From: Escherichia coli
GTDB taxonomy: Bacteria; Pseudomonadota; Gammaproteobacteria; Enterobacterales; Enterobacteriaceae
DNA length: 64,000 nucleotides
Assembly: GCF_022846255.1 (NCBI RefSeq)
Contig: NZ_AP025682.1
Direction: 5' to 3' (one strand)
Part shown: positions 1 to 3,000 of the stretch, in pieces
Layout: every line of letters starts with the position of its first letter
Position numbering within the stretch: position 1 is the stretch's first letter
Program-made: the position numbers

Positions 1-3000
1 TGTTTTAGAGATGTAAAGGAATAGCATGGCAAAAATCCGAAGTATAGCGACTTATTTGCGCATTAATGCCGTCGTAAACGGTGACCAACGAATCAACTGT
101 TAAAGAAAAGTAAATTCAGCTAAGTTGATTGCTTACAAAAGATGAAATTCAGAGGCGGTAGAATGTCGCGAAAAGATGGGGTGTTGGCGCTACTGGTAGT
201 GGTTGTATGGGGGCTAAATTTTGTGGTCATCAAAGTGGGGCTTCATAACATGCCACCGCTGATGCTGGCCGGTTTGCGCTTTATGCTGGTCGCTTTCCCG
301 GCCATCTTTTTTGTCGCACGACCGAAAGTACCACTGAATTTGCTGCTGGGGTATGGATTAACCATCAGTTTTGCGCAGTTTGCCTTTCTGTTCTGCGCCA
401 TTAACTTTGGTATGCCTGCTGGACTGGCTTCGCTGGTGTTACAGGCACAGGCGTTTTTTACTATCGTGCTTGGCGCGTTTACTTTCGGTGAGCGACTGCA
501 TGGCAAACAATTGGCGGGGATCGCCTTAGCGATTTTTGGCGTACTGGTGTTAATCGAAGATAGTCTGAACGGTCAGCATGTGGCGATGCTCGGCTTTATG
601 TTGACCCTGGCGGCAGCATTTAGTTGGGCGTGTGGCAACATCTTCAATAAAAAGATCATGTCGCACGCAACGCGTCCGGCGGTGATGTCGCTGGTAATCT
701 GGAGCGCATTAATCCCAATCATTCCCTTCTTTGTTGCCTCGCTGATTCTCGATGGTTCCGCAACCATGATTCACAGTCTGGTTACTATCGATATGACCAC
801 CATCTTGTCTCTGATGTATCTGGCATTTGTGGCGACAATCGTTGGTTATGGGATCTGGGGAACACTGCTTGGACGCTATGAAACCTGGCGGGTTGCACCG
901 TTATCGTTACTGGTGCCTGTAGTTGGACTGGCAAGTGCGGCACTATTGTTGGATGAACGCTTAACGGGTCTGCAATTTTTCGGTGCGGTGCTCATTATGA
1001 CCGGGCTGTATATCAATGTATTTGGCTTGCGGTGGCGTAAAGCGGTAAAGGTCAGAGGCTAAACCATACGCACAGAATGTGATGCCAGCACTCTGTGCGT
1101 CTGCTTTTATCGCGGGAAAAAGTACTTTACCTGGAACTCGAAAATATTGCTGTAAAGTAACGAATAATCCAGCGGAATAGAGTTACTATCCACAGCCTGG
1201 GTCTGAATTTTAAGTATGGGATCCCGTGGGCTGATCCGTAAAATACTGGCGATTTCTGGGGTAGGAAAAGTCGGGGAGAAAGTTTCAAAGGTGCCAATGA
1301 TTTTGATCCCGCATTCGTTCTCAATATACGAAAATTTGGATTTTTGCATATGCGATACGGTTAAATCAGGAAAACGTGCCACTGACATCCACGTTTCTTC
1401 TAATTGTGCTGCATTATCCTCAATGAATCGCAGTCTCTTTATGTAATAAACCTGCTCACCAGTCACTAAATTCAGCTCAGTCGCAATAGTAGGAGAAGCA
1501 TCCTGCACTTCAAATTTCATAATCTGACTTCCTGCCTCTTTGCCGCTTTTATGTGCAATTTCACTGAAACTGTTCATGTGATCAATGTGTGCAACAAAAT
1601 TCTTTTTTTGAATGTATGTTCCTGAACCATGCTTTCTGTGAATAATTCCTTCGCCTTCCAGCAGGGATAATGCCTTACGCAGGGTATTACGCGAAACATT
1701 ATAACGAACAGCGAGTTCCGCTTCTGACGGCAACAAATCACCAACATGCCATGAATTGCCATTGATCTCGGATTTAAGTAAGCGGGCAATCTTTTGAAAA
1801 ATCACTTTTGCACCTTTTAAGAGCCATTGAAAACAAGGAGTTGAGACCTGATTAGTTTATCGTATGGCCGAGTCGTTTAATTATCACCCTGTTGTTGAAC
1901 AACTTTATTGCTGTATTACTGTGATCAATGTACCAGGACGTGTAGCTACTGTGGGATATGATATTTACACAATGTAGTCTGTTATATACCAGTAAGGAAA
2001 AATATGAAAAAGATATTGTTAGTTTGCGCTGCGGGCATGTCAACCAGTATGCTGGTTAAACGTATGATTGATCATGCTACCGCTATTTCACTTGAAGTTA
2101 ATATTTCCGCATTGGCGATTGCAGAGGCTAAAGGGAAAATTAAAAATAACGAAGTTGACGTTGTTTTACTTGGTCCGCAAGTTCGCTTTCAGAAACCAGA
2201 GATTGAAGCCGTTGCACAGGGGAAAATGCCTGTAGCCGTTATCGAGATGAAAGACTATGGCACAATGAACGGACAGGCAGTTCTTGAATTTGCGATGAAA
2301 CTACTGCAAGAGTAAGAATCTAATATTATTAAACTATTACCTGAACTAACTTTTCACACATCATAAAATGGATATGGCATACATGCTTTATTGGGATGTA
2401 TAAATATCCAGGACAACAGGTATAAAAAAATGGGATTAATGGCATCATTCGAACGTGGAATGGAACGTTTTCTTGTTCCAGTTGCTATCAAGTTAAACTC
2501 ACAAAAACATGTTGCAGCGGTGAGAGATGGATTCGTTTTTACGTTTCCAATTATCATGGCAAGCTCATTAATTATATTAATTAACTTTGCCATATTATCG
2601 CCCGACGGTTTTATTGCCGGATTACTGCATCTGAACAGCATTTTCCCCAACCTTGAAAAAGCACAAGCTATTTTTACTCCGGTAATGAATGGTTCTGTAA
2701 ATATCATGTCAATTATGATTGCTTTCCTGGTCGCCAGGAATGTGGCGATTAGCTATGAGCAAGATGATCTTTTATGCGGATTAACGGCAATAGGAGCATT
2801 TTTTATTGTTTATACCCCATACCAGATGATAGATGGGCAGGCATTCCTGACGACCAAATATCTCGGCGCGCAGGGGTTGTTTGTTGCTGTTATCGTTGCA
2901 TTGATCACCAGTGAAATATTTTGTCGCTTAGCTCGAAACCCCAAAATCACCATAACGATGCCGGCAGCTGTACCTCCTGCGGTAGCGCGTTCATTTAAAG

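What the first reader, a model, noticed from the sequence alone, without database searches (positions are those of the whole stretch)
1806..2003. Divergent control region between the GntR regulator and the PTS operon
The ~200 bp region between the regulator and PTS IIB genes contains short palindromes (gttgttgaacaac around 1893-1905; tgatca around 1925) of the kind bound by GntR/HutC repressors. It probably holds overlapping divergent promoters and the operator of this sugar-specific circuit.
Basis: inference. Interest (0 to 1): 0.25.

Follow-up and report, generated by a model that had tools for sequence, protein, structure and literature searches.

The report
Known bgc beta-glucoside operon control region

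Summary
The region 1806-2003 lies between a GntR/HutC-type regulator gene (1107-1805, minus strand) and a PTS IIB-IIC-IIA-porin-phospho-beta-glucosidase operon (2004-7287). This is the E. coli bgc operon with bgcR (Neelakanta, Sankar and Schnetz 2009), inserted between eamA and marB.

Both palindromes exist, 2-3 bp from the stated positions, but neither exceeds chance.

I compared 28 orthologous control regions from about 10 enterobacterial genera. They show what is conserved:
- an invariant TGTGA (1920-1924), the left half of a CRP-like site (1920-1935).
- a TAnnnT -10 hexamer exactly 37 bp downstream (TATGAT, 1957-1962). This places CRP at -41.5, a class II layout.
- 8-bp boxes T(G/A)(A/C)AC(A/C)(A/T)C at fixed offsets. 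The left arm is not conserved and varies within E. coli.

No canonical HutC palindrome (GTMTAKAC) is present. A citing paper reports BgcR as a positive regulator, not a repressor.

Most likely this is a CRP-dependent promoter activated by BgcR from upstream boxes, which probably also overlap the bgcR promoter. The system is already known and of low interest. The unusual box layout is the only possibly new detail.

The parts
1107..1805 (-). bgcR, a GntR/HutC-family regulator of 232 aa with a GTG start
   Evidence: ORF. Pfam GntR (1.9e-19) plus UTRA (4.8e-30). Annotated as a GntR family regulator in RefSeq. Closest solved structure is YvoA/NagR, 4e-22.
1806..2003 (.). bgcR-bgcE intergenic control region (198 bp, 36% G+C)
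   Evidence: The orthologous intergenic regions are 186-200 bp in the 21 loci where PTS IIB is the first gene.
1807..1818 (+). Box TTTGCACCTTTT (core TGCACCTT, 1809-1816), overlapping the bgcR Shine-Dalgarno sequence (AAGGTG, the reverse complement of 1811-1816). Candidate BgcR site, possibly for autoregulation.
   Evidence: PWM score 13.0. Present at offset -112 from TGTGA in nearly all orthologues. Retained in the second module copies, where no ORF follows.
1830..1835 (.). Conserved AAAACA block in the bgcR leader; function unresolved
   Evidence: Positions A1830-A1832, C1834 and A1835 are invariant or nearly invariant in alignment A2.
1870..1881 (-). Inverted box (core GTTTA at 1875-1879; GTTCA in most other genera)
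   Evidence: G1875, T1876 and A1879 are invariant. PWM score 9.4. It starts exactly 21 bp before the next box in every locus.
1880..1885 (-). Candidate -10 hexamer of the bgcR promoter (GATAAT on the minus strand), giving a predicted start near 1873
   Evidence: The most position-conserved -10-like hexamer on the bgcR strand: nAnAAT lies 72-74 nt before the GTG in about 18 of 28 loci. This is inference only.
1891..1903 (.).
   Evidence: chance level; left arm not conserved; left arm polymorphic within E. coli.
1894..1905 (+). Main conserved box GTTGAACAACTT (core TGAACAAC, 1896-1903), centred at about -69.5 from the predicted operon start. Candidate BgcR activator site.
   Evidence: T1896, A1899, C1900, C1903 and T1904 are invariant or nearly invariant. 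PWM score 14.7. Always 23-24 bp upstream of TGTGA. Invariant among the E. coli alleles sampled.
1917..1938 (.). CRP-like site, core TGTGAtcaatgTACCA at 1920-1935, centre 1927.5.
   Evidence: TGTGA is invariant in the 22 aligned IIB-first regions and found at the same register in the other seven. The core matches 8 of 10 consensus positions. The 22-mer matches 11-15 of 22 positions across orthologues.
1957..1962 (+). -10 hexamer TATGAT of the bgc operon promoter
   Evidence: A TAnnnT hexamer lies exactly 37 bp after the TGTGA start in 27 of 29 loci. Invariant among the E. coli alleles sampled.
1969..1969 (+). Predicted bgc transcription start (A, 7 nt after the -10 hexamer), giving CRP at -41.5 and a leader of about 35 nt
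   Evidence: Inferred; not mapped. The leader has no Rfam match and no significant fold.
1979..1992 (.). Near-palindrome CTGTTATATACCAG in the leader, found only in E. coli and E. albertii
   Evidence: repeat I3, 90% complementary. Absent from the other genera. Invariant within E. coli.
2004..2315 (+). bgcE, PTS IIB (lactose/cellobiose type); its Shine-Dalgarno sequence AAGGAA is at 1994-1999
2430..3752 (+). bgcF, PTS IIC
3777..4091 (+). bgcI, PTS IIA
4146..5824 (+). bgcH, a LamB-type carbohydrate porin, frameshifted in this window
   Evidence: Split into two ORFs. Pfam Sugarporin_N and LamB. A 5-bp TGACC duplication at 4691-4695 relative to the intact 558-aa gene in L001.
5848..7287 (+). bgcA, a GH1 6-phospho-beta-glucosidase
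   Evidence: NF007154, 1035 bits.

Best explanation
The region is the regulatory region of the E. coli bgc (beta-glucoside/cellobiose) operon and its divergent regulator gene bgcR.

Proposed mechanism:
- The operon promoter is a class II CRP-dependent promoter. cAMP-CRP binds TGTGAtcaatgTACCA (1920-1935), centred 41.5 bp upstream of a start near A1969, with the -10 hexamer TATGAT (1957-1962) and no usable -35.
- BgcR, a HutC-type protein acting here as an activator, binds non-canonical 8-bp boxes T(G/A)(A/C)AC(A/C)(A/T)C upstream of CRP. These are TGAACAAC (1896-1903, about -69.5) and an inverted, degenerate copy (GTTTA, 1875-1879, about -92) 21 bp away.
- The same two boxes flank the likely -10 of the bgcR promoter (GATAAT, 1885->1880, minus strand), and a further box covers the bgcR ribosome-binding site (1807-1818). 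BgcR bound there would probably also limit its own expression.

Shown here: gene content, the conserved elements and their fixed spacings.
From the literature: BgcR is positive (cited second-hand). CRP dependence is from my recollection of the 2009 abstract.
Inferred: which protein binds which element, both transcription starts, and autoregulation.
For: - Identity of the locus: the GntR+UTRA regulator is divergent from IIB-IIC-IIA-porin-GH1. This matches the description of bgc/bgcR in PMC3585215.
- Footprinting: in 28 orthologous loci from Escherichia, Salmonella, Citrobacter, Kluyvera, Raoultella, Cedecea, Buttiauxella, Ewingella, Erwinia and others, the composite GT[TC][TC]A-N16-T[GA][AC]AC-N17-20-TGTGA is found in most, and the box-to-TGTGA part in nearly all. 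Spacings are rigid: 21 bp, then 23 bp (24 in E. coli and E. albertii).
- The module keeps its register even when the first gene is IIC or GH1 and the distance to that gene's ATG grows to 115-225 bp.
- The -10: TAnnnT lies exactly 37 bp after TGTGA in 27 of 29 loci, which corresponds to CRP at -41.5.
- Box statistics: background frequency at score 13 or more is 0.016-0.086 per kb, against two such hits in this 198-bp region.
- A diverged second copy of the module next to bgcA in 12 loci keeps the boxes and TGTGA while the sequence between them has diverged.
- Within E. coli, the boxes, the CRP site and the -10 are invariant, while flanking positions vary.
- No RNA element is present in the leader.
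Against: - No binding or transcript data could be examined. The primary paper is not held.
- The CRP match (8 of 10) is at chance frequency on its own: 24 hits in the window against 29 expected.
- Half-sites 21 bp apart, and 8-bp boxes in mixed orientation, do not fit the usual HutC dimer-on-palindrome model (PMC4494728).
- The boxes at the bgcR start overlap the Shine-Dalgarno sequence, the start codon and the first codons, so their conservation in the main copy could reflect translation signals.
- Boxes B2 and B3 flank a -10-like hexamer, so part of their conservation could be core-promoter sequence rather than a regulator site.
- The inverted box is weak in E. coli (score 9.4, GTTTA).
Confidence: 0.6

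Rival explanations
1. BgcR is a classical HutC repressor whose operators are the palindromes GTTGTTgAACAAC and TGATCA, and beta-glucoside-derived inducers release it.
For: Most characterised HutC regulators of cellobiose-type PTS operons are repressors, for example BguR and GmuR (PMC3585215). The 13-mer has perfect 6-bp arms and overlaps a conserved box.
Against: - BgcR is reported as a positive regulator.
- The left arm is not conserved between genera and varies within E. coli.
- TGATCA is not conserved, whereas the overlapping TGTGA is.
- The palindromes are at chance level.
- The site lies near -70, not over the core promoter.
- Neither palindrome fits GTMTAKAC.
Confidence: 0.08
2. In E. 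coli the BgcR operator is the leader near-palindrome CTGTTATATACCAG (1979-1992). It resembles a TGGTATATACCA-type GntR palindrome and lies between the predicted start and the ribosome-binding site.
For: It is 90% self-complementary, invariant in the E. coli alleles sampled, and contains GT...AC in an A/T-rich core, in keeping with the general NyGTNxACNy pattern. The related direct repeat ATGTACCAG (1928) / ATATACCAG (1984) also exists.
Against: It is present only in E. coli and E. albertii, although the BgcR recognition helix region (SRNTLRKA) is nearly invariant across all orthologues. The GT-AC spacing is 5 nt, not the HutC-typical 4. Such a position suggests repression, contrary to the reported positive role.
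Confidence: 0.1
3. The conserved 8-bp boxes are bound by a different, widely conserved enterobacterial factor (for example a response regulator that reads 11-bp-spaced direct repeats, or a nucleoid protein). BgcR would then act elsewhere or indirectly.
For: The tandem boxes 11 bp apart at the bgcR start resemble the direct-repeat sites of winged-helix response regulators (my own knowledge). The box layout is atypical for HutC proteins.
Against: The boxes co-occur with a bgcR orthologue in every locus examined, including the duplicated modules beside bgcA. They are rare elsewhere in the window. HutC-family exceptions that use direct repeats are documented: FarR and NagQ.
Confidence: 0.12
4. Much of the conservation at 1870-1905 is core-promoter sequence of the divergent bgcR promoter (-10 GATAAT plus flanks), not a regulator site.
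For: A position-conserved nAnAAT hexamer lies between the two boxes in about 18 of 28 loci.
Against: The invariant positions are in GTTCA and TGAAC, outside the hexamer. There is no conserved -35 at a proper 16-18 bp spacing; the TTGTTC-like sequence is only 11 bp away (read from the sequence). This rival is compatible with, rather than exclusive of, the main model.
Confidence: 0.1

Closest known systems
E. coli bgc operon (bgcEFIHA) and bgcR, Neelakanta, Sankar and Schnetz 2009, Appl Environ Microbiol 75:2284 (PMC2675225; not readable here)
   Same: Same species, same gene set and order, with a divergent GntR-type regulator. BgcR is described as a positive regulator (PMC3585215). From my recollection of the abstract, the promoter is CRP dependent, and a single base change makes it BgcR independent.
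   Different: Nothing substantive; this window is that locus. The box architecture, the -41.5 CRP placement and the cross-genus conservation derived here may or may not be in the paper, which I could not check. In this window the porin gene bgcH is frameshifted.
BguR/PbguA of Streptococcus pneumoniae and GmuR of Bacillus subtilis (PMC3585215)
   Same: These are HutC-type regulators adjacent to cellobiose-family PTS operons, and the authors report them as similar to BgcR.
   Different: They are repressors with a 20-bp palindromic operator (AAAAATGTCTAGACAAATTT; tAAATGTaTAGACAttTa) overlapping the -35. No such palindrome is present or conserved here, and BgcR acts positively.
HutC-family exceptions FarR/MngR (direct repeats TGTATTAWTT) and NagQ (direct repeats TGGTATT) (PMC4494728)
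   Same: These are HutC proteins whose sites are repeated boxes rather than the GTMTAKAC palindrome, as proposed here for BgcR.
   Different: The box sequence differs (T(G/A)(A/C)AC(A/C)(A/T)C). Here the boxes occur in both tandem (11 bp) and inverted (21 bp) arrangements, and binding is untested.
Class II and class III CRP-dependent promoters, with CRP at -41.5 plus a second upstream activator (established knowledge: Busby and Ebright 1999)
   Same: There is a CRP-like site whose centre lies 29.5 bp before the -10 hexamer, no -35, and a specific regulator site further upstream.
   Different: The transcription start is predicted, not mapped. The right half-site is weak (TACCA).
Other cryptic E. 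coli beta-glucoside systems: chb, asc and bgl (PMC4488073)
   Same: They share the same substrate class and cryptic behaviour, and bgc is listed alongside them.
   Different: Their regulators differ (ChbR/NagC, AscG, and BglG antitermination). No RNA antiterminator element is present here.

Membership tests
bgc operon / bgcR locus of E. coli | Genes for PTS IIB, IIC and IIA, a porin and a phospho-beta-glucosidase in one operon, with a divergent GntR-type regulator gene | tested here: met
   ORFs and Pfam/NCBIfam assignments, RefSeq annotation of a 99.8% identical locus, and the description in PMC3585215.
bgc operon / bgcR locus of E. coli | Variable presence among E. coli strains (an accessory island) | tested here: met
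   The control region is present in 2507 of 5426 complete genomes. The flanking eamA and marB regions are present in 5421.
HutC subfamily of GntR regulators | N-terminal GntR winged helix-turn-helix plus a C-terminal UTRA effector domain | tested here: met
   PF00392 at 1.9e-19 and PF07702 at 4.8e-30. The best solved relatives are YvoA/NagR, YydK and DasR.
Canonical HutC operator | Palindrome NyGTMTAKACNy with GT and AC 4 nt apart (PMC4494728) | tested here: not met
   The best match to TGTNTANACA in the E. coli region has 1 mismatch (TATTTACACA, 1962-1971) and is not conserved. The distribution of best matches over the 29 regions is close to shuffles.
   Second-hand literature says BgcR is positive. 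The conserved boxes lie upstream of the CRP site, not over the -10 or -35 of the operon promoter.
Class II CRP-dependent promoter | A sequence matching TGTGA-N6-TCACA | tested here: met
   TGTGAtcaatgTACCA matches 8 of 10. The left half is invariant in 29 loci and the right half is weak. Alone this is at chance frequency; conservation is what supports it.
Class II CRP-dependent promoter | Site centre at -41.5 from the transcription start | tested here: inconclusive
   The conserved TAnnnT 37 bp after TGTGA in 27 of 29 loci implies -41.5, but no transcription start has been mapped here.
Class II CRP-dependent promoter | Expression requires cAMP-CRP in vivo | not testable with these tools
   Reported in the 2009 paper according to my recollection of its abstract. 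The paper is not held.
Divergent overlapping promoters | Two mapped promoters on opposite strands that share or overlap regulatory sites | tested here: inconclusive
   There is a candidate bgcR -10 (GATAAT, 1885->1880) between the two boxes. The simple consensus scan found only two weak minus-strand matches elsewhere, at shuffle frequency.

The most novel reading that the evidence does not exclude
BgcR would be a HutC-family activator that does not use the family's GTMTAKAC palindrome. Instead it would read 8-bp boxes T(G/A)(A/C)AC(A/C)(A/T)C arranged as an inverted pair two helical turns apart, upstream of a class II CRP site, and as a tandem pair 11 bp apart over its own translation start. 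This whole box-plus-CRP cassette would be a portable unit that has been duplicated in Cedecea, Buttiauxella, Ewingella and relatives to bring bgcA under the same control.
Probability: 0.35. Interest if true: 0.35.

Novelty: already known. Interest (0 to 1): 0.15.

Why it matters
It matters little beyond annotation. The finding re-discovers the control region of a published, strain-variable beta-glucoside operon found in about 46% of complete E. coli genomes.

The practical value is a corrected map. The functional signals are a CRP site, a -10 hexamer and non-palindromic boxes, not the two palindromes. These give precise targets for mutagenesis.

If the boxes are confirmed as BgcR sites, BgcR would be another documented HutC-family member with a non-canonical operator and an activating role. 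This would be of modest interest to people modelling GntR-family DNA recognition.

Tried and rejected
- Reading the primary paper (PMC2675225, or by DOI): not held. Further literature searches gave only citing papers without promoter details.
- The simple sigma-70 consensus scan gave only two weak minus-strand matches at shuffle frequency and missed the activator-dependent promoter.
- CRP consensus search alone was not significant.
- A search for the canonical HutC palindrome found nothing conserved.
- An RNA-based control element such as the bgl RAT/antiterminator was rejected: no Rfam match at E<=1, and the leader fold has z = -0.8.
- Treating the two boxes as the -35 and -10 of a bgcR promoter was rejected, because the spacing would be only 11 bp (read from the sequence).
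- ArcA-, OmpR- or PhoP-type sites for the tandem boxes were considered from memory and not pursued. The invariant C of TGAAC does not fit those consensus sequences.
- More distant regulator paralogues (34-47% identity, L031-L081) lack the module and were used only as background.
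Full report
**What is there.** The window begins with eamA (142-1062). 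Next come a 232-aa regulator gene on the minus strand (1107-1805, GTG start) and a 198-bp gap (1806-2003). Then, on the plus strand, come genes for PTS IIB (2004-2315), IIC (2430-3752), IIA (3777-4091), a LamB-type porin (4146-5824) and a GH1 6-phospho-beta-glucosidase (5848-7287). marB, marA, marR and marC follow. Pfam gives GntR plus UTRA for the regulator, which makes it a HutC-subfamily member, and the expected PTS, porin and GH1 families for the others. The closest solved relative of the regulator is YvoA/NagR.

This gene set is the E. coli bgc operon with bgcR, described by Neelakanta, Sankar and Schnetz in 2009. That paper is not in the library. [quoted passage not shown] From my own recollection of the 2009 abstract, which I could not check here, the promoter is CRP dependent and a single base change makes it BgcR independent.

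The control region occurs in 2507 of 5426 complete E. coli genomes. The flanks occur in 5421, so this is an accessory island between eamA and marB. The window's allele is identical to that of the type strain ATCC 11775.

**Checking the observation.** GTTGTTgAACAAC is at 1891-1903 and TGATCA is at 1922-1927, 2-3 bp from the stated positions. A palindrome with arms of 6 bp or more and a spacer of 1 or less appears in 10.7% of dinucleotide shuffles of the region and in 8.4% of 198-bp tiles of the window. Six-base palindromes number 4 against 3.2 +/- 1.7 expected.

**Comparative evidence.** A protein search found BgcR orthologues at 48-87% identity in E. albertii, Citrobacter, Salmonella, Enterobacter, Kluyvera, Raoultella, Cedecea, Yersinia and others. 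A scan of one genome per species returned 80 loci. In 28 of them the orthologue (39-86% identity) is divergent from a IIB or IIC gene of the same system. A further locus has it divergent from the GH1 gene.

The gap is 186-200 bp in all 21 loci where IIB comes first. Aligning these with the window (alignment A2), and using ten clade representatives for information content, gives discrete conserved blocks on a poorly conserved background (mean 0.82 bit per column):
- the bgcR start codon with its ribosome-binding site;
- AAAACA (1830-1835);
- GTTCA, which is GTTTA in E. coli (1875-1879);
- TGAACAAC or TGCACCAC (1896-1903);
- an invariant TGTGA (1920-1924), followed by a nearly invariant C at 1926;
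- a TA at 1957-1958.

**The operon promoter.** TGTGA is the left half of TGTGAtcaatgTACCA, which matches the CRP consensus core at 8 of 10 positions. Such matches occur at chance frequency in the window (24 found, 29 expected), so the sequence alone proves nothing. However, TGTGA is invariant across 29 loci. A TAnnnT hexamer sits exactly 37 bp after its first base in 27 of those 29 loci (TATGAT in E. coli). With the -10 at -12 to -7, this puts the start near A1969 and the CRP centre (1927.5) at -41.5, which is the class II arrangement. This agrees with the CRP dependence I recall from the 2009 abstract. It is TGACCA in Salmonella and Citrobacter and TGAACG/TGAACA in Erwinia. The 35-nt leader has no Rfam match and no significant structure.

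**The boxes.** Upstream of the CRP site, the pattern GT[TC][TC]A-N16-T[GA][AC]AC-N17-20-TGTGA is found beside bgcR in most orthologous loci, and nearly all the rest keep the box-to-TGTGA part. The first two elements start 21 bp apart. The second starts 23 bp before TGTGA, or 24 bp in E. coli and E. albertii. This register holds even where the first gene is IIC or GH1 and the distance to its ATG is 115-225 bp.

A weight matrix built from the second element scores three sites in the E. coli region: 1894-1905 (+, 14.7), 1807-1818 (+, 13.0) and 1870-1881 (-, 9.4). Hits at 13 or more occur at only 0.016 per kb in the rest of the window and 0.086 per kb in unrelated paralogue loci. Across orthologues, boxes recur at fixed offsets from TGTGA: -25, -49/-50 (inverted), -112 and -123.

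The left arm is T-rich and not complementary in most genera. It differs in all seven other E. coli alleles I fetched (T1892A in all, G1891A in one). In those same alleles the box, the CRP site and the -10 are invariant.

**A second copy of the module.** In twelve loci (Cedecea, Buttiauxella, Ewingella and related isolates), a second, diverged copy of the module lies just past the 3' end of bgcR. It points toward bgcA or an intervening gene. It keeps TGTGA, both boxes and the tandem boxes that overlap the bgcR start in the main copy. There is no ORF there: in L018 it reads GTG GTT TAA. The sequence between the blocks no longer aligns. This argues that the boxes, including those at the bgcR start, are cis-acting elements rather than only translation signals. 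It also argues that the module works in the bgcR direction as well.

**The bgcR promoter.** On the bgcR strand, the most position-conserved -10-like hexamer (nAnAAT; GATAAT at 1885->1880 in E. coli) lies between the two boxes, 72-74 nt before the GTG, in about 18 of 28 loci. If that is the bgcR promoter, BgcR bound to the boxes would sit at about -70 to -92 of the operon promoter and directly over its own promoter. This is a common design for divergent activator genes. It is inference only; the simple promoter scan did not help.

**Comparison with the family.** HutC-subfamily sites normally fit NyGTMTAKACNy, with GT and AC 4 nt apart. Documented exceptions use direct repeats: FarR (TGTATTAWTT) and NagQ (TGGTATT) (PMC4494728). 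The relatives BguR and GmuR use TGTCTAGACA-type palindromes overlapping the -35 and are repressors (PMC3585215). No such palindrome is conserved in the bgc region.

The E. coli leader does hold a near-palindrome, CTGTTATATACCAG (1979-1992). It is confined to E. coli and E. albertii, although the BgcR recognition helix is nearly invariant across orthologues. I therefore rank it as a minor rival.

**Verdict.** The finding is the known bgc/bgcR control region. The specifics do not: the palindromes as operators, a HutC-type repressor, and TGATCA as a regulator site. My confidence in the overall identity is high. My confidence in the detailed map (CRP at -41.5, boxes as BgcR sites, autoregulation) is moderate, because nothing here tests binding or transcription.

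Noticed in passing
window 4691-4695 (within 4146-5824): The porin gene bgcH is split into two ORFs by a 5-bp tandem duplication (TGACC x3 instead of x2) relative to the intact 558-aa gene in strain 09A19CPO009. It is therefore a frameshifted pseudogene in this window.
   Followed up: yes
L010 4742-4790; L014, L016, L018 (4753-4801), L020, L021, L022, L024, L025, L028, L029, L030 at similar positions: A second, diverged copy of the box-box-TGTGA module, including a remnant of the bgcR ribosome-binding site and start (for example AGAGGTTCAAAAGTGGTTTAA in L018), sits just 3' of bgcR and faces the GH1 gene bgcA or an intervening gene. This suggests duplication of the control cassette.
   Followed up: partly
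L089 (E. coli MS20654, NZ_CP082083.1), locus 1853-2545 versus 2511-2822: In this bloodstream isolate only 37 bp of the query match, and the annotated regulator and IIB genes overlap. The control region and the 5' end of bgcR therefore appear to be deleted.
   Followed up: partly
L009 (Kluyvera cryocrescens NBRC 102467), about 110 bp upstream of its bgcR start: The module is intact up to the TGAACAAC box. It then gives way to unrelated sequence, with no TGTGA and no PTS genes within the locus. This looks like a rearrangement or insertion breakpoint.
   Followed up: no
window 1875-1879 and 1904-1919: E. coli and E. albertii differ from all other genera in two ways. The inverted box is degenerate (GTTTA instead of GTTCA), and there is one extra base between the main box and TGTGA (24 versus 23 bp). 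This might contribute to the near-silent state of the operon in E. coli.
   Followed up: partly
window 1794-1818 and the equivalent position in all orthologues: All but one of the bgcR orthologues examined start with GTG (the exception, Erwinia phyllosphaerae, has ATG) in a nearly fixed context (GGAGGTTCAAAAGTGGTTTA). This context itself contains two box-like 8-mers 11 bp apart.
   Followed up: partly
window 2316-2429: A 114-bp A/T-rich gap separates the IIB and IIC genes. It was not examined for internal promoters or processing signals. An Rfam scan of 1500-2600 found nothing.
   Followed up: no
window 1-9000: The bgc island sits between eamA and marB. Only about 46% of complete E. coli genomes carry the control region, while the flanks are nearly universal. 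Five matches are on plasmids.
   Followed up: no
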